DNA of 64,000 bases, taken from NCBI RefSeq assembly GCF_022045235.1, contig NW_027266266.1, positions 5,081,848 through 5,145,847 on the forward strand. The letters are read 5' to 3'. The notes below the pieces were generated by a model. It was not told the origin of the DNA, ran no database searches, and saw only the letters and a program-made list of their open reading frames with translations. How positions within the stretch are numbered: the stretch's first letter is position 1; each line of letters starts with the position of its first letter. Position numbers and translations under genes: made by a program. Below, one piece after another: positions 16,651 to 53,430 of the stretch. The DNA is from Haliotis cracherodii (Eukaryota).

Positions 16651-18179
16651 GACCTTTACCTTGAACATGCAAAGCTCCATGTTCCATATGGAGCCTAGGT
16701 CAGTGACAATGATGTGTGTCAATTTTGAACAGTCGATCACCATTTGTCGATTATTTATTTGATGTATTAACTGTACATCTAAATTCACTTTTCCGTTTCT
16801 TTTTTTTTGCAGAGTATATAATTCTAACATGTTTGTGAAGGAGGATATCAAAAGGAGAAGGCTATAAACGAATTTGACAAAATGATGCTAGGTGGTGAAG
16901 TGAAGAAGGCTTAAGAAATGGAGCTAAATGTTATGACCATTTTTATCATTGAAATGGCTTTTCTGTCGCACTGTGTAATACAAATTATCTTTGTACTCTA
17001 CCATGACAATAAAGATTTTGCAAGAGAAACATCTGTTTCTGTATTTTAGCCTTTTCACACAAAACACGTGCGTATGAATACATCGATAGCCTACATATTG
17101 ATCCATAACAAATGGCTGCAGATCACCGATAAGAACTGCATACCGTATCGATAATTTAATCTGTTCAGTCATACTCCCGTTCATTTGGTAATAACCACGT
17201 TGTACCAGCAGCCTCTTCCCAGTAAATCTACAGGTTAATGTTGAACAACATCATAGATCGGGGTTGTCATCTTGCTTCGTGTGACACATATTGTCAGAGG
17301 CACGAATCGAGGCAATCTGTCACCCATACAATGGGCGATGGCATATTCGATTTCCAAGAAATGACAACAAGTTGCGATGAATTTATATTATAACACATGT
17401 CTTTGGGATCAGTTTGGAGGGTAACTTCTTTTTGAAAAACTTTTGTGTTTTGGACCCTTATTATGAAGTAGTCGAGAACATGTGCATTGTAATGTTTAAC
17501 TCATATAATATTTGTTACATTTATAACTACCTATGACCCCTTTTCGGAATGTTCTAAGACAATCTCATTAAAATCAGATCTTAGTTTTCGCTACGGCTAA
17601 ACAAAGATCTGAGGACATCCCATTAAGGGTCACGCAAGAACGACCTCGCGAATTTTGACCGTTCAATGAAATGACTGACAAGAAATAGACATTAGCCAAT
17701 CAGAAGGCAGCTTTCTCGAGCTTTACGACACTAGTTTCAAACTGGCGACTACGCTTCGAAACATATTTTGACGTATTCTCGGTTAAACATTTTAAAACTG
17801 ATAAAAAAAACACATTCTGGAATGGCTTACAGATGGCCTAGATTGTATGGATATAATCATAAAACCCGTAACTGTCGTTCCGAATACCCGCTGTTAAATA
17901 TTTCGTTGCATAGGTTGCATGATCAGAAAACACATTCCGTCTGTTTCCTTTCATGGTAAATTGAGATAAACCTATTGTGTTTTTCAATTTGGCGTTGTCC
18001 TCTCACTAGAGAGTAGACAGCGATCGGACTACATCAAACTTCAAAACACAGTAGGTTCATCTCCTAAATGTCTCTTTCCTGGAAGGTTTCAGTTAAGTGT
18101 ACAATTAGATCGTGATGATGAAGGATAAATCTCACTTACAAACCACTTACAGTATAATCATTACGTACCATTTACTAAC

Positions 18180-45298: not shown

Positions 45299-45419
45299 CG
45301 AGCATGGAGACGAGCTGTATGTAGACGATTTCTAATCGTGTGACCCGTAATTCGTACTCGAGTAGCGTGAAGAACGTTTGCGGAAATTTGATTCACCGTT
45401 CGAGCTCGATTTCGAAGAG

Positions 45420-45870
45420 CCTGGACCGCCTCTGTGGCCTGGTGTTAGAGCGTCCGCCCGGAGAGCCTGGACCGCCTCTGTGGCCTGGTGTAAGAGCGTC
45501 CGCCCGGAGAGCCTGGACCGCCTCTGTGGCCTGGTGTTAGAGCGTCCGCCCGGAGAGCCTGGACCGCCTCTGTGGCCTGGTGTTAGAACGTCCGCCCGGA
45601 GAGCCTGGACCGCCTCTGTGGCCTGGTGTTAGAACGTCCGCCCGGAGAGCCTGGACCGCCTCTGTGGCCTGGTGTTAGAACGTCCGCCAGGAGAGCCTGG
45701 ACCGCCTCTGTGGCCTGGTGTTAGAACGTCCGCCCGGAGAGCCTGGACCGCCTCTGTGGCCTGGTGTTAGAACGTCCGCCCGGAGAGCCTGGACCGCCTC
45801 TGTGGCCTGGTGTTAGAACGTCCGCCCGGAGAGCCTGGACCGCTTCTGTGGCCTGGTGTTAGATTTTTTT
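45420..45870. repeat. 46-bp minisatellite of about 10 copies (cctggaccgcctctgtggcctggtgttagagcgtccgcccggagag), derived from the SINE family 4 head
   Basis: Direct tandem repetition is visible. The unit contains the ccgcctc.gtgg.ctggt.tagagcgtccgcccggagag segment of the SINE head. Confidence 0.8.
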
Positions 45871-46417: not shown

Positions 46418-46590
46418 ATAACGAAGTCAAAGGGACTACTAATTTTAGTTCGTTATAACCGTAGTTCGTTATAAGCATATATACAGCATAACTAAAGCAA
46501 ATAGTTGGGACTAAAAAGTAAGTTCGTTATATCCGTCAGTTCGTTATAAGCGTGTTCGTTATAACCGTAGTTTACTGTATTTGCATACGA
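46418..46590. mobile_element. Second copy of the 190-bp MITE, 26 bp upstream of gene A exon 5
   Basis: Reverse complement of the 41275-41465 copy. Confidence 0.55.
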
Positions 46591-46615
46591 AAATGTTTTT
46601 ATAATGGTGTTCCAG

Positions 46616-46692
46616 GGTCCACTGCTCCCGCTAACAGTGAAGTTGTGACGTTCCCGACGCTGTGGGGCAAACTAACGCTGTACATCCTGTAG
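46616..46692 (+). CDS. Gene A exon 5 (phase 1, includes stop): (G)STAPANSEVVTFPTLWGKLTLYIL*
   Basis: Acceptor ggtgttccag. The frame carried from exon 4 runs to TAG at 46690-46692. VTFPTLWGKLTLYIL parallels IRFTFFTSWGTVHLYIL in gene B. An ATTAAA lies about 70 nt downstream. The intron from exon 4 is about 3.6 kb and filled with transposable elements. Confidence 0.5.
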
Positions 46693-46763
46693 GCAACTGG
46701 TTCCGCCGTCATCTGCCTCGTGGTTTGGGAAAATATCCCTTTATGATGTGTACTTATGAACAT

Positions 46764-46769
46764 ATTAAA
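46764..46769 (+). promoter_or_regulatory. ATTAAA polyadenylation-signal variant downstream of the gene A stop
   Basis: About 70 nt after TAG 46692. Confidence 0.35.
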
Positions 46770-47515
46770 ATATCATTTTCTTGACTCTCTTAATTCAAAA
46801 TTTATTTCCCAAATATAATGGACAACTTTCACTTACTATTACGCTTTGATTCAACCTACTGTGTGAGTTCGTAAATGAGTTGGGTCGCTTTCAGCATTAT
46901 TTTATAAATATCACGGTAAAGACGGCCAAAGAGTTCCACACATTGTACCCATGACAGGAAGCGTAGCCAGGCCCGAGGTTATAAAACTTCATGCTCAAAT
47001 CCGGTTTCTGGCTGAACTTAAATCTAAGACTCAATAAACGGAGGTTATGAATAATCTGAGTACGTTTTCGTGCTCAACTTCAGCATGAAATACGTACGAT
47101 CTCAAGTACGCTTTGGACCGTGCTCAACGCTGAGTTCGATATCAACAATGGCAGCCCACCTGCGTCAGACTCGACACACCACTTCCTTTTATTTCTGCAA
47201 ACAGAAGTTGTTCTCGTTGGATCACCTCCTGGACAAGACACACTTCCTCCGCCTGTGACCGCCTTCTTGACTCGGGCACGCTCTTCGTTGCCATTGGAAA
47301 TAATCGGACGACAACATCCGGGTTGTTTTCTTACCTTTCTCGACGGAAGAGTTCCAAATTGTCGCTTGTTTCATAAACACAGAGTACTTTGAGCATGCTC
47401 AAGCCGAGCGTGAGTAGTGCTCACCTGAATATGAATGATGTTTATTCTCGTAAATCACGGCAGTGATACAAAGATGTAATTGGACACAGGAAAAAGATAC
47501 GATGAAGAAAACATG

Positions 47516-49609
47516 TCAGTGGAAAATTTCCATACATGATCTTATATAACTTGCCAGTTTTAATAGAGTTGGCTTATAAGTAATGGACATCAAATGAGAG
47601 AATTTTACGGCAGAAGGATACATACAGTAGTATTGAGGCAAAAACTTGTTTCTAATTTCTGAGAGTTTTGGACATTCTAATAAAAAGTGCATTTCATCAC
47701 ATATAAAATTTTTACACAATGTACATTTTCTTTCCTCTCTCACAATATTATACCATCTTCCTGTTTCAATGGGTAATCTATGATTTGCTGTTCTAAAACG
47801 AGCAAGAGAGATGCGTAAGGTGATTGGTAGTTCTAGTAAATAAGGTTCTAGAGATGGTAACTCTTTAAACATGTTATAATAGTAACCTTTAGATGAATTT
47901 TCCTTTGATTCTCGCCATCTTTGCAGAAAATTATCAATGAGAACATGTTTCACATTTTGTTTCAACCATGCGACACTAATAAAGGTTTGAGACAGCCAAA
48001 TGTAATTAAAGCCTATATTTTGAAGAATGCATTTTACTTCTTTTAATAGTGGGAAATGGTAATCTGGATTTGCAATGGACATTTGAAACATAAGTTTATA
48101 TACTATACTAGAAAGGCTAGTTTGTGATGATGTTAGCTTGCACCAATATGAAATCATTCTTATCTTAATGAAAATGCTGAGAGGATACCTCCCTAGTTCA
48201 CCATATACCATGTAATCGGGTGTTGACTGTTTTAACTTGAGAATATATTTACAAAATTTAAGATGTACACGTTCAATGACAACAGTATTTTCAAAACCCC
48301 ACACCTCAGATCCATATAACAATACTGGCTGAACAAGTTGATCAAATAATTTCAGTTGACAGTCAATAGGAATTTCTAATATTCTAATTTTACGAAATAC
48401 AGCGTACATTGCTCTAGATGCCTGATCTGTCAGTCTCTTTAGTGCCTTACAGAATCTACCAGTGTTTGTAAATAAAATACCAAGGTAAACATATTCTTTA
48501 ACAACATGAAGAAACGAGCCATTTAACATAAACTTGAAGACTCTATTTGTGGAGCGCTTGGCAAAAATAACTACTTTCGTTTTGCCAACATTGACTTTAA
48601 GTTTCCAGATAGTACAATATTCTTCAAATATAGTGAGACACTTTCTTAAATCTTCTGGGCTTTCGGCCATTAAAACAGTATCGTCGGCATACAAAATGAG
48701 AAAAAGTTTTATGTACAGTTCAAGTGAATCTATTAAAAGGTTATTTACATGATGCAGTCCTTCAAAGTCATTTTCAGATAAAAATTGTTCAAGGTCATTA
48801 AGGTACAAAGCAAACAGGAAAGGTGACAAATTTTCACCTTGTCTTACACCAATTTGACATGGGAAGAAACCTGACACCTTGTTATTGTGTGTAACACAAG
48901 ATTTGATATTTTGATATATATTATATATGACATTAAAACATTTTCCTTTGATATTAGACTTTATCATTTTTGACCACAGACCACACCTCCATACTGTATC
49001 GAAAGCTTTGCTAAAATCGACGAAAACACAATACAACTTCTTATTAAGGTTTCTATAGATATCAATGAGAGCTTTAAGAATAAACATATTGTCAATTGTT
49101 GAGTATTTTTTTCTAAATCCTGCTTGCGCTTCGCTTATCAGATTAGTCTGAACTGAGTAAGCTTGTAAACGATTATTCAATAGTGTAGTGAACAATTTAC
49201 CTAAACAGCTTAGGATAGAAATACCTCTGTAATTGTCTGGGTCAGCTTGGTTTCCTTTGTTTTTGTAGATTGGTTTTATTTTGCCAACAAGCCAAGCTTC
49301 AGGTAAAACCCCAGTGTCAAAAACGAGGTTAAAAAGCCTTACGTAAACCGGCATCATAACATGAATAGAGCTTTTAATGTACTCATTGTAAATACCATCC
49401 AACCCACAAGCCTTATTGTTCTTCAATGCACGGACAGCTGACATAATTTCTTCTTCTGTAATCCTACAATCTAAGATATCATCATGATTATCGTAATTTG
49501 TGTTATTGGCAAAAACATCGTCATTATCATCAGAACTTTGATTAAGATCTTTAAAAAATTGAAAAAAATTGTCAATACTGATTTTTTTCTGCTGTTTTCT
49601 TTGGTTCAA
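47516..49609 (-). CDS. LINE ORF2 reverse-transcriptase part (697 aa) with a C-terminal Cys-rich motif
   Basis: RT motifs FRKKYSTIDN, FVDFSKAFDTV and YADDTVLM. The C-terminal segment is CTLCKNFICDEMHFLLECPKL. Confidence 0.8.
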   Translation of the reverse strand: MNQRKQQKKISIDNFFQFFKDLNQSSDDNDDVFANNTNYDNHDDILDCRITEEEIMSAVRALKNNKACGLDGIYNEYIKSSIHVMMPVYVRLFNLVFDTGVLPEAWLVGKIKPIYKNKGNQADPDNYRGISILSCLGKLFTTLLNNRLQAYSVQTNLISEAQAGFRKKYSTIDNMFILKALIDIYRNLNKKLYCVFVDFSKAFDTVWRCGLWSKMIKSNIKGKCFNVIYNIYQNIKSCVTHNNKVSGFFPCQIGVRQGENLSPFLFALYLNDLEQFLSENDFEGLHHVNNLLIDSLELYIKLFLILYADDTVLMAESPEDLRKCLTIFEEYCTIWKLKVNVGKTKVVIFAKRSTNRVFKFMLNGSFLHVVKEYVYLGILFTNTGRFCKALKRLTDQASRAMYAVFRKIRILEIPIDCQLKLFDQLVQPVLLYGSEVWGFENTVVIERVHLKFCKYILKLKQSTPDYMVYGELGRYPLSIFIKIRMISYWCKLTSSQTSLSSIVYKLMFQMSIANPDYHFPLLKEVKCILQNIGFNYIWLSQTFISVAWLKQNVKHVLIDNFLQRWRESKENSSKGYYYNMFKELPSLEPYLLELPITLRISLARFRTANHRLPIETGRWYNIVREERKCTLCKNFICDEMHFLLECPKLSEIRNKFLPQYYCMYPSAVKFSHLMSITYKPTLLKLASYIRSCMEIFH

Positions 49610-49682
49610 ATGATTTTAAAATTTCCCAAAAATTCTTAGGGTTACTATCCTTACATTCCCTCAGTTGTTGGGACACATTTGT

Positions 49683-50936
49683 CTATGTCTTAAATGCCTT
49701 CTTTAGGGTTTTACTATAAGCTCTACTAGCTGAAATGTACATAGCTTTGCTATTACTGTCTTTAGTCCTTCCATATATACGTTTACGCTTGTGGTAAAAT
49801 CTACGTGATGATTTACATTTTTCATCAAACCAGGGTTTATGCTTGTGCTTATGTACAGAATGTCTAGAATTTCTTACAGTACCTGGAGTAGTTTCAGCCG
49901 CAGTAACCAGCGTCTGAGAGGGTTTATTTACAATTTGGTTAATGTCATTTCGCTCTATTTGGTCTTTACATGCATCTAATTCTGTACACTGATGGGTAAT
50001 GGCAACCTTATCGATATTACATAAAAATGTTTCACTTTTATCAGGAACCCATCTTTTTACAACTTTATGTACATGTACATCCTTGTCATCATCTATAACT
50101 GGAGATAGTTGTTGTGCTGTACAATCTAACGTTAACGATAAGCCACAGTGTACATCGGACGAGATCGGATCAAACTCCTGTACATGTACCTCAAAATCTA
50201 TTGATAATGGGAATGTTTCTGCTGATGCAATACAATAATCGACAACACTGGCATTTCTGCATGTCAGTTTACCAATACCCTTGTCTTTGCCTAATCTTCC
50301 ATTCACAATATACAGCCCGTTATTTTTACATAAATCCAGGAGTTTATACCCGTTACAGTTTGTTTCAGTATCCATTGATATTCTATCTAAATTTACACCG
50401 GTGTCAACTAGAAGTTGTACATTTGAAAACAATAATTCCTCGTCAATAATATCATTGTCACATAAATATTCGTCCAAAATGATAAAATCCGGAAGATTTT
50501 TAGTACGAAAATTCATATCACCAACAATACACATGTACTGTGAGCAGTTTGACATACGAATGATATCATTTTCTAGTGTTGTAAATATTTCCGGTGAATG
50601 AAATCTACTTTGCTCTGGTGGTATATACACAGTTCCTAGGATAAGGTCATCGTTAACATGCAGGAAATCACTTGGTATCTTACACCATAAAACAATATCA
50701 TGCATCTTTTCGATGACGCTGACCTTGTCAAATAGTGTCTCTTTGATGGCTACAATGATCCCGCCAGATACACGTGTGTTCAGTGCGTTAGTTCCGTTAT
50801 TCATATGAACTGAGAATCCTGGGATTTTCACAGCATCTAAATCACACGTTTTAGTTTCAGTCTGACACAGTATATCGTATCTGGACACATCGTTCACAAA
50901 ATCGGGGTTCAACAGCTTTGTCCTAATCCCACACAC
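49683..50936 (-). CDS. LINE ORF2 N-terminal part: apurinic/apyrimidinic-like endonuclease (417 aa)
   Basis: EEP-family motifs (ILCQTETK..., D..H at the C-terminus) in the same frame as ORF1. It is separated from the RT ORF by a frame change near 49610-49690, next to a homopolymer run. Confidence 0.7.
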   Translation of the reverse strand: MCGIRTKLLNPDFVNDVSRYDILCQTETKTCDLDAVKIPGFSVHMNNGTNALNTRVSGGIIVAIKETLFDKVSVIEKMHDIVLWCKIPSDFLHVNDDLILGTVYIPPEQSRFHSPEIFTTLENDIIRMSNCSQYMCIVGDMNFRTKNLPDFIILDEYLCDNDIIDEELLFSNVQLLVDTGVNLDRISMDTETNCNGYKLLDLCKNNGLYIVNGRLGKDKGIGKLTCRNASVVDYCIASAETFPLSIDFEVHVQEFDPISSDVHCGLSLTLDCTAQQLSPVIDDDKDVHVHKVVKRWVPDKSETFLCNIDKVAITHQCTELDACKDQIERNDINQIVNKPSQTLVTAAETTPGTVRNSRHSVHKHKHKPWFDEKCKSSRRFYHKRKRIYGRTKDSNSKAMYISASRAYSKTLKKAFKT

Positions 50937-51023
50937 ATTAAGAGACAGTATCTTAAGTTTCTCGTGGGAAGTTACGTTTTCACTGTTAGGCGACTCACGG
51001 GTTTGCTGACCTCCGTTATTCTC

Positions 51024-51965
51024 CTACCGCGGCCTGTTTTCTCCCGTGTCCTCAGTCCTGGCCATCTTGTTGGGTTGTCTGTTGTCTGACCGACCGAAGG
51101 CACTCGCGTATGATCTCCTGCTGGGGGGAGGGTCTCGTGGGGTGAGATCTATAAACGGGTCGTCTCCTGGGTACACACGTCTCCCGTCTATATACAGTCT
51201 GTCTACTGTGAGGTTAGACTTCAAACCACGCCTCCTTGCTTCCTTGAAAATGGGGAGTAGATATCTCCGTCTCTGCACAATCTCTTGAGGAAACTGTTCA
51301 CTAACACCGAATTGCGTTTCTCTCAGCTGTCTTGTGTTAGTCAGGATTTCCCACCGTTCGTCTGGATTTGCAAATTTTGCCACTATAGTACGTGGTCTGT
51401 TAGATAAGTGAGGGCCAATCCTATGTACACGTAAGAGGTGAATGTCTGTGTCACACTTCATTTCTTTCTTTAAGAAACCTTGAATTACCTCTTTAGGTTC
51501 TTCTCCAGGCATTTCCGGGATCCCGTGAAAGAGTAAATTATCTCTCATAGAGCGTGTTTTCAGGTCAATGACATATTCTTTCAGGTCTCGCTGTTCCTGG
51601 TATATGGAGTCTATGTCATAAAACACGTCTTCTACATCTCTCGACAACCTGTCCCGATCATCGGTACTCTGTTCTGTCAGCTCCCGTACCTGTTGTTTCA
51701 GCTTTTTGTTTTCTGATGCAGTCTCTCTCACACAGGCTTCAAGCTTATCAACGCGAAGTGTTGTCTCTATCATTGTAATGTCGAGAGATGTCAGCTTATT
51801 GTCAATCATAGTTAATTTACTGTCAATGCTATCAACACACTGCATCCTCTGGTTTATGGAATGAACCATGGTAGTCAAGTGCCTCATTTGATCAAATAAG
51901 GTTTTAATCCATTCTGCGTTGTCAACACTGGACAACATGGCCTGGTTGAAAATCCGTGTTGGCAT
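51024..51965 (-). CDS. LINE ORF1p (313 aa; coiled-coil N-terminal half, L1-type RNA-binding C-terminal half ...VHRIGPHLSNRPRTIVAKF...DRLYIDGRRV)
   Basis: Intact ORF. The heptad-rich N-terminal half and the RPR-IVKF / YI-G motifs are typical of L1 or Tx1 ORF1. Confidence 0.7.
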   Translation of the reverse strand: MPTRIFNQAMLSSVDNAEWIKTLFDQMRHLTTMVHSINQRMQCVDSIDSKLTMIDNKLTSLDITMIETTLRVDKLEACVRETASENKKLKQQVRELTEQSTDDRDRLSRDVEDVFYDIDSIYQEQRDLKEYVIDLKTRSMRDNLLFHGIPEMPGEEPKEVIQGFLKKEMKCDTDIHLLRVHRIGPHLSNRPRTIVAKFANPDERWEILTNTRQLRETQFGVSEQFPQEIVQRRRYLLPIFKEARRRGLKSNLTVDRLYIDGRRVYPGDDPFIDLTPRDPPPSRRSYASAFGRSDNRQPNKMARTEDTGENRPR

Positions 51966-52379
51966 TCTGATGTTGTGAATGATTTTGGACGAAATGCGCC
52001 TCCATCACTGCACATCAATAATAAGATTTTCGCATATATTTATACAATGTCTGAATGTAGACTTACAGTTTGTACATGTCAATCTTGTTCGTGTCTCAAT
52101 TTCTCGGTTAGCTATCAGGGCTATCAGAGCTCTCGAATAAACACGTCCCCATGCTACGAACCCAAGCTGTGTATCAAACTTAAGATGTTTTATAACCTCT
52201 GTTTGAGTACAAATCTCAACTGAGTACGAACTTGAGCATGAGCATGAAACTGAGTTGAGCACGAATTGTTTTTATTACCTCGGGGCCAGATCTTCAACGT
52301 GTCCGTGCTTTACCTTGGCTAAGCCATCGCTCAATGTCTTTGGATATCTTGAATTTGATTGGTCAATCAGCGTTATCAT

Positions 52380-52745
52380 GTCAAAGTAACACTCTTCTAC
52401 GTGAATCCTATATGATGTAGATACATATAATGTAGATATAAATAATGTAGATATACATAATTTAGATACACATAACTCTAGATACACATAATGTAGAAAC
52501 ATATATTATAGATACACATAATTGAGATACACATAATTAAGATACACATAATTAAGATATACATAATGTAGATACACATAATGTAGATACACATAATGTA
52601 AATACATAATTATAGATACATATAATGTATATATACGTAATGTAGAAATGAATAATGTAGATACACATAATGTAGGTACACATAATGTAGATACACCTAA
52701 TTTAGAGACATATAATGTAGATGCACATAATGTTGTGAACAATAC
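52380..52745. repeat. Tandem repeat with a unit of about 19 bp (atacacataatgtagatac), about 18 copies, at the 5' flank of the LINE
   Basis: Visible periodicity. Confidence 0.8.
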
Positions 52746-52799
52746 TTCTCAGAAAGGAATATCAGTAGTGAGCCAGCACAACTTCACATTTATCGTTGG

Positions 52800-52995
52800 G
52801 CCATGTTCCCCTGTATGGATAATTTCTACCGATAAGGATAAAGTACGGATTATTTCTAATGATATGGATAAGTATAAGATAATTTCTACCGATAAGGATA
52901 ACGTATGGGTGATTTCTACCTCTATGGACCATTTCTAATGATATGGATAAGTATGGATCATTTCTACCGATATGGATAAGTATGGATCATTTCTT
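52800..52995. repeat. Tandem repeat with a unit of about 30 bp (atttctaccgataaggataa.gta.gg.t)
   Basis: Visible periodicity. Confidence 0.7.
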
Positions 52996-53089
52996 CCGAT
53001 GACGGAATCCAATTTTGTTCAAAATCACACTCAAATACACTCGGCACAGGGATAAGTTACAACATTTAGGTGGCAGCCTGAAGGTGAAG

Positions 53090-53430
53090 AGTACACCATT
53101 TCCAAGGCATACCGCCCAGGGCGCTCTCACAATTAGAAATAGGGGGCTCTTATAAGAATATTATTCTGGCGGGAAAATACAGAGTTGAAAGATCGTCAAT
53201 TTCGTGGTTTATGCTGACAGCTTGAATTTTTTATATACGACAGATATATTTTTCCAGAATTTAATTGCCCATAATTATGGGTGCAAATAACACACGAGTG
53301 CGTATTATACACGAATAAATAAGTCCATAAATTGTGTACATTGATCAATCGGAAGGGGTGCTAATAGGGATTGTTCACTAGCCAATATATCAGCAAATAT
53401 CGCTGTGGGCGGTTATTAGAGCGGGGCGTC
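53090..53430. repeat. Interspersed repeat of about 340 bp; inverted partner at 56870-57235
   Basis: ccagggcgctctcacaattagaaatagggggctcttataagaatattattctggcggg... is the reverse complement of ...ccaaaataatattctaatgagagccccaatttctaattttgagagcgccctgg. Confidence 0.6.

What the first reader, a model, noticed from the sequence alone, without database searches (positions are those of the whole stretch)
47040..52265. Young, almost intact L1-clade LINE with a single ORF2 frameshift
- ORF1 (313 aa, coiled coil plus L1-type C-terminal domain), the APE endonuclease ORF (417 aa) and the RT ORF (697 aa) are each uninterrupted.
- The only defect is a frame change between endonuclease and RT at about 49610-49690.
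- That position is adjacent to a T homopolymer run (gatttttttctgctg), so it could even be a sequencing or indel artefact, which would make the element potentially autonomous.
- Similar gagtacg...gtgctcaac motifs occur near both ends (47040-47130 and 52195-52260).
- A 19-bp tandem array of 18 copies abuts the 5' end.
Basis: partly seen in the sequence, partly recalled or inferred. Interest (0 to 1): 0.5.

Follow-up and report, generated by a model that had tools for sequence, protein, structure and literature searches.

The report
Dead copy of young abalone RTE-X LINE
This is an ordinary, recently inserted but already broken copy of a jumping gene (an RTE-X-type LINE, not an L1) in an abalone genome; what stands out is that this LINE lineage always joins its two genes in one reading frame across a single UAG stop codon.

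Summary
The three ORFs (313, 417 and 697 aa, minus strand) and the T7 run are real.

- **Boundaries:** two Haliotis rufescens copies place the LINE at about 47429-52169 (4.74 kb). The gagtacg/gtgctcaac motifs and the tandem array (15 bp x 21, 246 bp away) lie outside it.
- **Clade:** it is RTE-X, not L1. The RT is 52-58% identical (273-321 bits) to RTE-X-labelled mollusc RTs, against 63.5 bits for L1-Tx1. The tail is AATAAAC(ATCATTC)n, not poly(A). ORF1 does fold like L1 ORF1p, but that fold also occurs in other clades.
- **Damage:** there are at least four frame-breaking lesions, all private to this copy. These are an 11-nt deletion in ORF1, a 4-nt deletion creating TAG, +1 C, and +1 A (A6 to A7). 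There are also 19 missense changes.
- **Age:** the three-copy consensus has intact ORF1 (330 aa) and ORF2 (1167 codons), and this copy is 0.67% from it. The family is young; the copy is dead.
- **Side finding:** in all eight related elements compared, ORF1 ends in UAG and ORF2 follows in frame without an AUG. This suggests gag-pol-like readthrough.

The parts
47429..52169 (-). Whole LINE (RTE-X clade), about 4.74 kb. The 5' end is CAGCTTGGGTTCGTAGC; the 3' end is ...GAGAATAAAC(ATCATTC)AT.
   Evidence: Homology with H. rufescens copy L002 starts at window 52169. Homology with L001 ends at about 47426-47431. The flanks of the three copies are unrelated. The 3' end is uncertain by about 3 nt.
52006..52169 (-). 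5' UTR (164 nt), presumed to hold the internal promoter.
   Evidence: This is the stretch between the shared 5' end and the true ORF1 ATG. The promoter function is inferred, not tested.
51922..52005 (-). Original ORF1 start (ATG 52005-52003; MEAHFVQNHSQHQNANTDFQPGHVVQ), now out of frame. It runs into TGA at 51924-51922 after an 11-nt deletion at about 51927-51932.
   Evidence: The N-termini of H. cracherodii proteins P0122 and P0169 match this translation. The 11 nt are present in both L001 and L002.
51024..51965 (-). The 313-aa ORF1 remnant: coiled coil (aa 17-140), RRM (143-223) and CTD (227-264). It starts at a fortuitous out-of-frame ATG, and its stop is TAG 51026-51024.
   Evidence: ORF. 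AlphaFold model with pLDDT 80. The top 12 Foldseek PDB hits are all human L1 ORF1p, with E down to 1.3e-8. Residues 27-313 are identical to XP_071092926.1 of H. cracherodii.
47516..51023 (-). ORF2 (1167 codons in the consensus). It lies in the same frame as ORF1, directly after the UAG, with no in-frame ATG for about 70 codons. In this copy it is broken.
   Evidence: Translations and the consensus ORF.
50142..50948 (-). APE-type endonuclease domain, from LSLNVCG to SSDVHCG.
   Evidence: Motif coordinates, invariant columns, and the profile's PDB hits: ExoIII 5CFE at E = 8.5e-5 and L1-EN at E about 0.007.
50184..50189 (-). Private in-frame 6-nt duplication (GTACAT) that adds two codons to the APE domain.
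   Evidence: Absent from L001, L002 and P0136.
49683..49685 (-). In-frame TAG created by a private 4-nt deletion. The ancestral sequence is ACA TAT CAA AAC AAA (KTYQNK).
   Evidence: L001, L002 and H. cracherodii P0136 all read KTYQNKCVQQLREC here.
49670..49672 (-). Private +1 C (CC to CCC). It brings the frame back after the 4-nt deletion.
49582..49588 (-). Private +1 A (A6 to A7, seen as T7 on the + strand). It shifts the APE frame into the RT frame.
   Evidence: L001 and L002 have A6, and P0136 reads KKTADKISMD.
48476..49255 (-). Reverse transcriptase domain (RVT_1), including the YADD motif at 48671-48694.
   Evidence: Pfam RVT_1 at E = 2.9e-37 and motif coordinates.
47672..47725 (-). C-terminal CX2CX8HX4C zinc-knuckle motif (CTLCKNFICDEMHFLLEC).
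   Evidence: Read directly from the sequence. The Pfam zf-RVT hit is weak, at E = 0.092.
47429..47515 (-). 3' UTR, with AATAAA at 47446-47441 and an (ATCATTC)n tail. The tail has 1 unit here and 2 units in L001. A small hairpin AUCAC-UGCC-GUGAU is present.
   Evidence: The fold has z = -2.0. Related elements end in AATAAA followed by 8-10-nt tandem units.
46972..47008 (+). Flanking DNA, not LINE: left arm of an imperfect inverted repeat that brackets the insertion.
   Evidence: Local alignment score 35, against 17.4 +/- 2.3 for shuffles, and seed matches.
52246..52284 (-). Flanking DNA, not LINE: right arm of the same inverted repeat.
52415..52733 (.). Flanking 15-bp tandem array (21.3 copies, 81% matches). 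It is unrelated to the LINE.
   Evidence: TRF result. No such array is seen in the short stretches shown upstream of the L001 and L002 copies.

Best explanation
The feature is one defective genomic copy of a young RTE-X-clade (RTE superfamily) non-LTR retrotransposon family of Haliotis. It lies on the minus strand at about 47429-52169.

**How an intact element of this family is built (shown):**
- A 164-nt 5' UTR.
- A 330-aa ORF1 protein with an L1-ORF1p-like coiled coil, RRM and CTD.
- A single UAG stop.
- An in-frame 1167-codon ORF2 with an APE endonuclease, a reverse transcriptase, a thumb region and a CCHC knuckle, but no RNase H.
- A short 3' UTR ending in AATAAAC(ATCATTC)n.

**How it would move (inferred from established LINE biology):**
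- It is transcribed from an internal promoter.
- ORF1p trimers coat the RNA.
- ORF2p is made at low level past the UAG, by readthrough or by AUG-independent reinitiation.
- The APE domain nicks the target, and the RT primes on the nick from the 3' tail (target-primed reverse transcription). Slippage on the 7-nt tail unit would change its copy number.

**State of this copy (shown):** it inserted recently, being 0.67% diverged from the family consensus, and has since decayed neutrally. It carries an 11-nt deletion in ORF1, a 4-nt deletion creating TAG, +1 C and +1 A in ORF2, a 6-nt in-frame duplication, and 19 missense against 8 synonymous changes. It cannot be autonomous.
For: - **ORFs and domains:**
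- **ORF1 fold:** the top 12 PDB hits are all human L1 ORF1p.
- **Host and further copies:** ORF1 is 93-100% identical to several H. rufescens and H. cracherodii proteins. Two H. rufescens copies were fetched, L001 and L002, at 97.5-98.7% nucleotide identity and with unrelated flanks.
- **All five indels are private to the window:**. A third, H. cracherodii copy (P0136) also has an intact junction.
- **Intact consensus:** the majority consensus of the three copies has intact ORF1 and ORF2.
- **Neutral decay:** private coding substitutions are 8 synonymous and 19 nonsynonymous, against a random expectation of 21% synonymous.
- **Clade:** RT motifs match sequences that Martelossi et al. 2023 (PMC10294476, Data S2 and Table S7) classify as RTE superfamily, RTE-X clade.
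  - BLASTP bit scores were RTE-X 273-321 for four of the five labelled sequences (160 for the fifth), RTE-BovB 108, Proto2 94, Nimb 84, CR1-Zenon 82 and L1-Tx1 63.5.
- **ORF1 in RTEX:** RTEX is reported to encode real ORF1 proteins, unlike BovB (PMC3905857).
- **Size:** the curated RTE-X mean length of 4937 bp fits this 4.74-kb element.
- **Tail:** non-poly(A) tandem tails are seen here and in relatives.
Against: - No Repbase RTEX reference sequence could be aligned directly. The clade call rests on published labels for bivalve sequences at 52-58% identity.
- No target-site duplication was found for any copy.
- The 5' end rests on only two copies ending at the same base.
- Only three DNA copies were available, so copy number, and whether an intact master copy exists today, are unknown.
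- The window probably comes from H. cracherodii while L001 and L002 come from H. rufescens. Some of the 'private' substitutions could therefore be differences between the two species' lineages rather than post-insertion decay.
- Pfam does not detect the APE domain above threshold.
Confidence: 0.9

Rival explanations
1. One reading: an L1-clade LINE that is intact apart from one ORF2 frameshift. The frameshift might be a homopolymer sequencing artefact, so the copy could be autonomous.
For: - Three long ORFs are present.
- The A7 run differs by one base from the A6 of the other copies.
- ORF1 folds like L1 ORF1p.
- The best PDB sequence hit of the RT is human L1 ORF2p, at E = 1.4e-23.
Against: - The RT scores lowest against L1-Tx1 (63.5 bits) and highest against RTE-X (up to 321 bits).
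- The L1 ORF2p hit (86 bits) is barely better than R2 (74 bits) and covers only the RT core.
- There is no poly(A) tail.
- The type II ORF1 is also found in CR1, L2 and R1 elements (PMC4120745).
- The stop-codon layout rules out a repair by a single frameshift.
- There are three further frame-breaking lesions, and two of them (-11 and -4) are not in homopolymers.
Confidence: 0.02
2. The copy is functional, and the TAG and the frame change at the APE/RT junction are programmed recoding signals: stop-codon readthrough plus a +1 frameshift on the A-run.
For: - An in-frame UAG is apparently tolerated elsewhere in this family, between ORF1 and ORF2.
- The frame change sits on a homopolymer.
Against: - Three other copies (L001, L002 and P0136) and all distant homologs have a plain open frame here, reading KTYQNKC...KKTAEKISID.
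- The lesions are therefore recent and private, not conserved signals.
- The shift needed is +1, not the -1 that an A AAA AAU heptamer would favour (reasoned from the sequence).
Confidence: 0.01
3. The ORF1 part is a domesticated host gene. NCBI annotates it as an 'uncharacterized protein' in two abalone species, and it merely sits beside LINE debris.
For: At least eight annotated Haliotis proteins are 93-100% identical to ORF1. They stay open while ORF2 is broken in the copies examined.
Against: - Each ORF1 examined is embedded in a colinear LINE copy at a different locus.
- The annotated proteins differ by truncations, indels and fused models, as multicopy repeats do.
- Window-private ORF1 changes are 4 synonymous and 4 nonsynonymous, and the true N-terminus is frameshifted.
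Confidence: 0.03
4. The inverted-repeat flanks belong to the element. On this reading it is a composite or terminal-repeat-bearing retroelement rather than a plain LINE.
For: An imperfect inverted repeat of about 38 nt and shared short motifs bracket the LINE.
Against: Homology with both other copies stops exactly at the LINE ends, and their flanks carry none of these motifs. The arms lie 77-115 bp beyond the 5' end and 421-457 bp beyond the 3' end.
Confidence: 0.03

Closest known systems
RTE-X / RTEX clade LINEs of molluscs (for example Repbase RTEX-1_LG of Lottia, RTEX-n_CGi of Crassostrea, and the RTE-X clusters of Martelossi et al. 2023)
   Same: - The RT domain is 52-58% identical to four of the five RTE-X-labelled sequences (39% to the fifth).
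- ORF2 has an APE domain and an RT without RNase H.
- A real ORF1 is present.
- The element is about 4.7-4.9 kb long.
- The tail is a short tandem repeat after AATAAA.
   Different: - This is a Haliotis-specific family. The closest ORF2 in the protein database is only 57% identical.
- Its ORF1 is the coiled coil, RRM and CTD type, whereas the RTEX ORF1 proteins discussed in PMC3905857 are esterase-bearing.
- No Repbase reference could be aligned here.
RTE / BovB clade LINEs
   Same: They share the superfamily, the APE plus RT architecture, a short 3' UTR and tandem-repeat tails.
   Different: RT identity is only 31% (108 bits). BovB-type elements have rudimentary ORF1 proteins or none (PMC3905857), whereas this element has a 330-aa ORF1 protein.
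L1 (LINE-1) clade
   Same: ORF1p has the same fold as human L1 ORF1p. ORF2 has an APE domain, an RT and a C-terminal CCHC motif, and ORF2 has no need for a conventional AUG.
   Different: - The RT is the most distant of the labelled sets tested: 63.5 bits to L1-Tx1 and 86 bits to human ORF2p over the RT core only.
- There is no poly(A) tail.
- The thumb region resembles the non-L1 type (my own reading of the sequence from memory of clade motifs, not a tool result).
- The APE domain alone gives no sequence hit to L1-EN.
Gammaretroviral gag-UAG-pol readthrough (MuLV type)
   Same: An in-frame UAG separates the RNA-binding structural protein from the polymerase. The stop is always UAG and is followed by G in 6 of 7 distinct elements.
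   Different: No stimulatory pseudoknot or stable structure is predicted downstream (z = +0.73). Readthrough was not tested, and the element is a LINE, not a retrovirus.

Membership tests
L1 clade LINE | The RT domain groups with L1/Tx1 reference RTs. | tested here: not met
   BLASTP against labelled RTs puts L1-Tx1 lowest (63.5 bits, 28% identity), against RTE-X at 273-321 bits. Human L1 ORF2p scores only 86 bits, close to R2 at 74 bits.
L1 clade LINE | A 3' poly(A) tail. | tested here: not met
   The element ends in AATAAAC(ATCATTC)n, with 1 unit here and 2 units in L001. There is no A-run.
L1 clade LINE | A type II ORF1 protein (coiled coil, RRM, CTD). | tested here: met
   The top 12 Foldseek PDB hits are all human L1 ORF1p. 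The feature is not diagnostic, because it also occurs in CR1, L2 and R1 elements (PMC4120745). Pfam Transposase_22 does not hit.
L1 clade LINE | An APE domain close to L1-EN. | tested here: inconclusive
   The single sequence gives no PDB hit at E <= 1. The family profile hits ExoIII (E = 8.5e-5) better than L1-EN (E about 0.007).
RTE-X (RTEX) clade, RTE superfamily | The RT domain is closest to RTE-X RTs. | tested here: met
   Signature motifs match sequences labelled RTE / RTE-X in Table S7 of PMC10294476. Identity is 52-58% and scores are 273-321 bits for four of the five labelled sequences (39%, 160 bits for the fifth), against at most 108 bits for every other clade tested.
RTE-X (RTEX) clade, RTE superfamily | Placement inside the RTEX clade in a phylogeny with Repbase references (RTclass1). 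| not testable with these tools
   The reference RT sequences are not in the stored part of the supplement, and Repbase and RTclass1 are not available here.
RTE-X (RTEX) clade, RTE superfamily | ORF2 has an APE domain and an RT, without RNase H. | tested here: met
   Pfam finds RVT_1 only, with no RNase H hit at E <= 0.1. APE motifs and profile.
RTE-X (RTEX) clade, RTE superfamily | A substantial ORF1 protein, in contrast to RTE/BovB. | tested here: met
   The consensus has a 330-aa ORF1. The contrast between RTEX and BovB is stated in PMC3905857.
RTE-X (RTEX) clade, RTE superfamily | A short tandem-repeat 3' tail and a length of about 5 kb. These are typical rather than strictly defining features. 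| tested here: met
   Tail. The 4.74-kb length compares with the curated RTE-X mean of 4937 bp.
Autonomous (retrotransposition-competent) LINE copy | An uninterrupted ORF1 running from the family's own start codon. | tested here: not met
   An 11-nt deletion frameshifts the ORF after codon 26. The 313-aa ORF uses an out-of-frame ATG.
Autonomous (retrotransposition-competent) LINE copy | An uninterrupted ORF2. | tested here: not met
   There is a TAG at 49685-49683 plus two 1-nt insertions.
Autonomous (retrotransposition-competent) LINE copy | A full-length 5' end and target-site duplications. | tested here: inconclusive
   The 5' end is shared with L002 at window 52169. No TSD is recognisable.

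The most novel reading that the evidence does not exclude
The mollusc RTE-X lineage to which this element belongs makes ORF2p as an ORF1-ORF2 fusion by programmed readthrough of a conserved in-frame UAG, as gammaretroviruses do for gag-pol. My literature searches found no description of this strategy for LINEs.

In all eight elements compared, seven of them distinct:
- The ORF1 stop is UAG.
- ORF2 follows in frame 0.
- The 5-26-codon spacer is open.
- No in-frame ATG precedes the APE motif.

The seven distinct elements are the Haliotis family, L003, L004, Mya arenaria L005, L006, L007 and L008 (L009 is a near-identical copy of L008).

One relative, P0131, has a sense codon in place of the stop. 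The residues immediately after the stop are conserved as amino acids.
Probability: 0.4. Interest if true: 0.55.

Novelty: new member of a known kind. Interest (0 to 1): 0.3.

Why it matters
As first described, the finding is routine: a decayed copy of a young LINE family in an abalone genome.

It has some practical value:
- It gives a 4.76-kb consensus with intact ORFs for a recently active Haliotis RTE-X family. This is useful for repeat annotation, because NCBI currently annotates its ORF1 copies as 'uncharacterized protein' genes.
- It shows that an L1-type ORF1 protein is combined with an RTE-X ORF2. This adds to the evidence that ORF1 modules are exchanged between LINE clades.

The more interesting lead is the invariant in-frame UAG between ORF1 and ORF2 in this lineage. 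If it marks readthrough, it would be a retrovirus-like way of setting the ORF1p:ORF2p ratio in a LINE. It is directly testable with reporter constructs.

Tried and rejected
- **More copies inside the window:** self-BLAST of 46500-53200 against the 64-kb window found none. A search with the 3' end, allowing 3 mismatches, found only the element itself.
- **Exact-pattern scans:** the 3'-end 30-mer gave no match in metagenome contigs or genome contigs.
- **Exact protein look-ups:** the three window ORFs are not in the collection. H. cracherodii proteins P0122 and P0136 have no DNA on record. Only three DNA copies could therefore be compared.
- **Clade from the gastropod paper (PMC11203168):** its FASTA records carry no family labels and the classification sequences are not named in the text, so I abandoned this route.
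- **Repbase references from PMC10294476:** these lie in the part of the supplement that was cut on storage. I used labelled bivalve sequences instead.
- **Pfam and PDB sequence searches:**
  - ORF1 gave only coiled-coil noise in Pfam and no L1 ORF1p hit in the PDB sequence search.
  - The single APE sequence gave only a weak, sub-threshold Pfam hit (PF14529, E = 0.0019) and no PDB hit.
  - The fold search and the profile search resolved both questions.
- **Rfam:** no hit in 46500-53200.
- **-1 slippery heptamer at the A-run:** rejected, because the shift needed is +1 and the other copies have A6.
- **Structure downstream of the UAG:** none beyond chance.
- **Target-site duplication:** none convincing.

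Full report
**1. What is in the sequence**

On the minus strand, the ORF listing gives ORFs of 313 aa (51965..51024), 417 aa (50936..49683) and 697 aa (49609..47516).

- The 697-aa ORF carries Pfam RVT_1 (E = 2.9e-37).
- The 417-aa ORF carries the APE-type endonuclease motifs LNVCG, TETK, VYIPP, GDMNxRT, VVDY and SDVH.
- A profile of that ORF and its homologs hits an ExoIII-family nuclease (5CFE, E = 8.5e-5) and L1-EN (E about 0.007) among solved structures.

So the raw observation of three long LINE-type ORFs is correct.

**2. The junction is not a single frameshift**

I translated all three frames of 49480-49800.

- The APE frame stops at TAG 49685-49683.
- It then continues open in the same frame through the conserved linker ...NPKNFWEILKSFEPKKTAEK.
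- It leaves that frame only at the A7 run.
- The RT frame has its last upstream stop at 49618-49616, which is downstream of the APE-frame TAG.

One frameshift therefore cannot join the two ORFs.

**3. Other copies, host and true boundaries**

*Host.*
- ORF1 is 95% identical to a Haliotis rufescens protein and 93% identical to a Haliotis cracherodii protein.
- Cluster members include XP_071092926.1 of H. cracherodii, which is identical to window ORF1 residues 27-313.
- The window is therefore most likely black abalone.

*Copies fetched.* Two H. rufescens loci carrying the family were retrieved.

| Locus | Aligns to window | Identity | Own defects |
|---|---|---|---|
| L001 | 51978-49156 and 49166-47426 | 97.5% and 98.7% | 5' truncation; nested 2.9-kb retroposon with an (AAGT)n tail and TSD CAAGCTTACT |
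| L002 | 52169-50074 and 50156-47464 | 97.7% and 98.7% | internal 73-bp tandem amplification; 3' end lost |

*Boundaries.*
- The flanks of the three copies are unrelated.
- The LINE runs from 52169 (CAGCTTGGGTTCG...) to about 47429 (...GAGAATAAAC-ATCATTC-AT), a length of 4.74 kb.
- The 3' end has no poly(A). After AATAAA it carries a 7-nt unit, ATCATTC, once here and twice in L001.
- Related elements likewise end in AATAAA followed by 8-10-nt tandem units.

*What lies outside the element.*
- They belong to an imperfect inverted repeat of about 38 nt (46972-47008 against 52284-52246). Its alignment score is 35, against 17.4 +/- 2.3 for shuffles.
- This suggests that the LINE landed inside a small TIR-bearing or palindromic repeat. 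No second copy of that repeat was available to prove it.
- The tandem array has a 15-bp period and 21.3 copies at 52415-52733. It lies 246 bp from the LINE end, and no such array is seen in the short stretches shown upstream of the other copies.

**4. Lesions**

A three-way alignment gives the following changes that are private to the window:

| Position | Change | Effect |
|---|---|---|
| about 51927-51932 | 11-nt deletion | frameshifts ORF1 |
| 50184-50189 | 6-nt in-frame duplication | adds two codons to the APE domain |
| 49683-49685 | 4-nt deletion | creates TAG |
| 49670-49672 | +1 C | brings the frame back |
| 49582-49588 | +1 A (A6 to A7) | shifts into the RT frame |

- The true ORF1 start is ATG 52005. 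Its translation, MEAHFVQNHSQHQNANTDFQPGHVVQ, matches the N-termini of H. cracherodii proteins P0122 and P0169.
- After the 11-nt deletion this frame hits TGA at 51924. The 313-aa ORF exists only because an out-of-frame ATG at 51965 falls into register.
- L001, L002 and the H. cracherodii protein P0136 all read KTYQNKCVQQLREC...KKTA(E/D)KIS(I/M)D across the junction. The junction lesions are therefore private.
- Repairing the homopolymer alone would not restore function. The -11 and -4 deletions are not homopolymer events.

**5. Age**

- The majority consensus of the three copies (4760 nt) has an intact 330-aa ORF1 and an intact 1167-codon ORF2.
- Over about 4.5 kb the three copies carry 30, 26 and 17 private substitutions and no shared derived states. 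This is a star-like pattern.
- The window copy is 0.67% from the consensus.
- Its coding changes are 8 synonymous and 19 nonsynonymous, against a random expectation of 21% synonymous. This points to neutral decay after insertion.
- At least eight annotated ORF1 proteins in two species are 93-100% identical.
- The family is young and was recently active, but each copy examined is individually dead.

**6. Clade**

*Weak links to L1.*
- The RT's sequence hit to human L1 ORF2p is weak (86 bits, RT core only) and hardly better than its hit to R2 (74 bits).
- A scallop homolog is named after jockey, not L1.

*Positive evidence for RTE-X.*
- The RT signature (DPDNYR..SCLGKLFT, QAGFRK, DFxKAFDxVWR, GKCFNVI, IKSCV, GVRQGENLSPFLF, LLYADDTV) was found in the alignment of Martelossi et al. 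2023 (PMC10294476, Data S2).
- Table S7 of that paper classifies the matching sequences as RTE superfamily, RTE-X clade.
- I degapped the labelled sequences and ran BLASTP against the window RT:

| Labelled clade | Bit score | Identity |
|---|---|---|
| RTE-X | 273-321 (fifth sequence 160) | 52-58% (fifth sequence 39%) |
| RTE-BovB | 108 | 31% |
| Proto2 | 94 | 27% |
| Nimb | 84 | 27% |
| CR1-Zenon | 82 | 33% over a shorter stretch (162 aa) |
| L1-Tx1 | 63.5 | 28% |

The element is therefore RTE-X, not L1.

*ORF1 does not argue for L1.*
- An AlphaFold model of ORF1 (pLDDT 80) shows one long helix, an RRM and a small alpha/beta CTD.
- Its 12 best PDB matches are all human L1 ORF1p, with E down to 1.3e-8.
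However, this type II ORF1 is also known from CR1, L2 and R1 elements (PMC4120745).
- RTEX is known to encode genuine ORF1 proteins, unlike BovB (PMC3905857).

**7. Mechanism**

*Shown:* the parts list and the intact consensus.

*Inferred from established LINE biology:*
- Transcription starts from the 5' UTR.
- ORF1p trimers coat the RNA.
- The APE domain nicks the target, and reverse transcription is primed on the nick from the 3' tail. Slippage on the 7-nt unit would explain the difference of 1 versus 2 units between copies.
- The 3' UTR folds only modestly better than shuffled sequence (z = -2.0).

**8. Side finding: an in-frame UAG**

- In the window, and in the consensus, ORF2 begins directly after the ORF1 UAG in the same frame. 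There is no in-frame ATG for about 70 codons.
- The same layout holds in every related element I could fetch: L003, L004, L005 (Mya arenaria), L006, L007, and the near-identical pair L008 and L009.
- In all of them the stop is TAG, the frame is 0, the spacer of 5-26 codons is open, and no ATG precedes the APE motif.
- The base after the stop is G in 6 of the 7 distinct elements.
- One relative, P0131, has a lysine codon in place of the stop, which makes an ORF1-APE fusion.
- The residues just after the stop are conserved among L004, L005 and P0131.
- If frames and stop codons were random and the lineages independent, the chance of this pattern would be well below 1e-3 for each of the two features (my own estimate).
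- This points to gag-pol-like UAG readthrough or to AUG-independent reinitiation.
- No special RNA structure follows the UAG (z = +0.73).
- Two literature searches and a review of reinitiation (PMC5972666) mention only termination-reinitiation and 2A peptides for LINEs.
- I treat this as an untested lead.

**9. Verdict**

- The feature is real but ordinary.
- It is a dead copy of a young Haliotis RTE-X LINE.
- It is a new member of a known kind.

Noticed in passing
window 51024-51026 (ORF1 stop) and the spacer 50949-51023; also L003:1156-1158, L004:1365-1367, L005:7006-7008, L006:2190-2192, L007:1740-1742, L008:2140-2142, L009:1349-1351: In this family and in every related element fetched (L003-L009; L008 and L009 are near-identical), ORF1 ends in UAG and ORF2 follows in the same frame. 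The spacer is open and there is no in-frame ATG. One relative (P0131) has a sense codon in place of the stop. This suggests readthrough or AUG-independent reinitiation as a lineage trait.
   Followed up: partly
window 46972-47008 and 52246-52284 (flanks 46972-47428 and 52170-52284): The LINE is bracketed by an imperfect inverted repeat of about 38 nt. There are also scattered TGAGCA(C/T)G and GTACTCA motifs. This looks like an insertion into a TIR-bearing element of about 570 bp or a palindromic repeat. No other copy was available to confirm it.
   Followed up: partly
window 52415-52733 and 52810-53000: A 15-bp tandem array (21 copies, 81% matches) is followed by arrays with periods of 29, 30 and 48 bp. 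Both are flanking satellite-like DNA unrelated to the LINE.
   Followed up: no
window 45416-45863: A very homogeneous 46-bp tandem repeat (9.7 copies, 98% matches, GC-rich) lies about 1.6 kb beyond the 3' end of the LINE.
   Followed up: no
L002:11799-12974: In the H. rufescens copy L002, a stretch of the APE-coding region (window 50074-50156) recurs at about 73-bp spacing roughly 16 times. The LINE interior has turned into a minisatellite.
   Followed up: partly
L001:10861-13798: The H. rufescens copy L001 carries a nested 2.9-kb insertion. It ends in (AAGT)n and has a 10-bp TSD, CAAGCTTACT. This is another retroposon family.
   Followed up: no
Protein hits P0063, P0065, P0071, P0073, P0075, P0090, P0092, P0098, P0100; L006: Mollusc RTE-X ORF2 proteins are deposited in NCBI as proteins of bacterial MAGs (Sedimenticola, Candidatus Thiodiazotropha). 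These are almost certainly host (bivalve) contamination of symbiont bins.
   Followed up: no
Proteins P0121, P0122 and P0169-P0173: NCBI annotates ORF1 copies of this LINE as 'uncharacterized protein' genes in H. rufescens and H. cracherodii. One model (P0169) joins ORF1 to the APE region and lacks the UAG, probably through a spurious intron.
   Followed up: partly
window 46501-46579 vs 41367-41289; 53113-53193 vs 57208-57130; 5248-5748 and 17559-17602 vs L001:7454-7533: Other short dispersed repeats (86-100% identical) are shared within the window and with the H. rufescens locus. They are probably SINE or MITE fragments.
   Followed up: no
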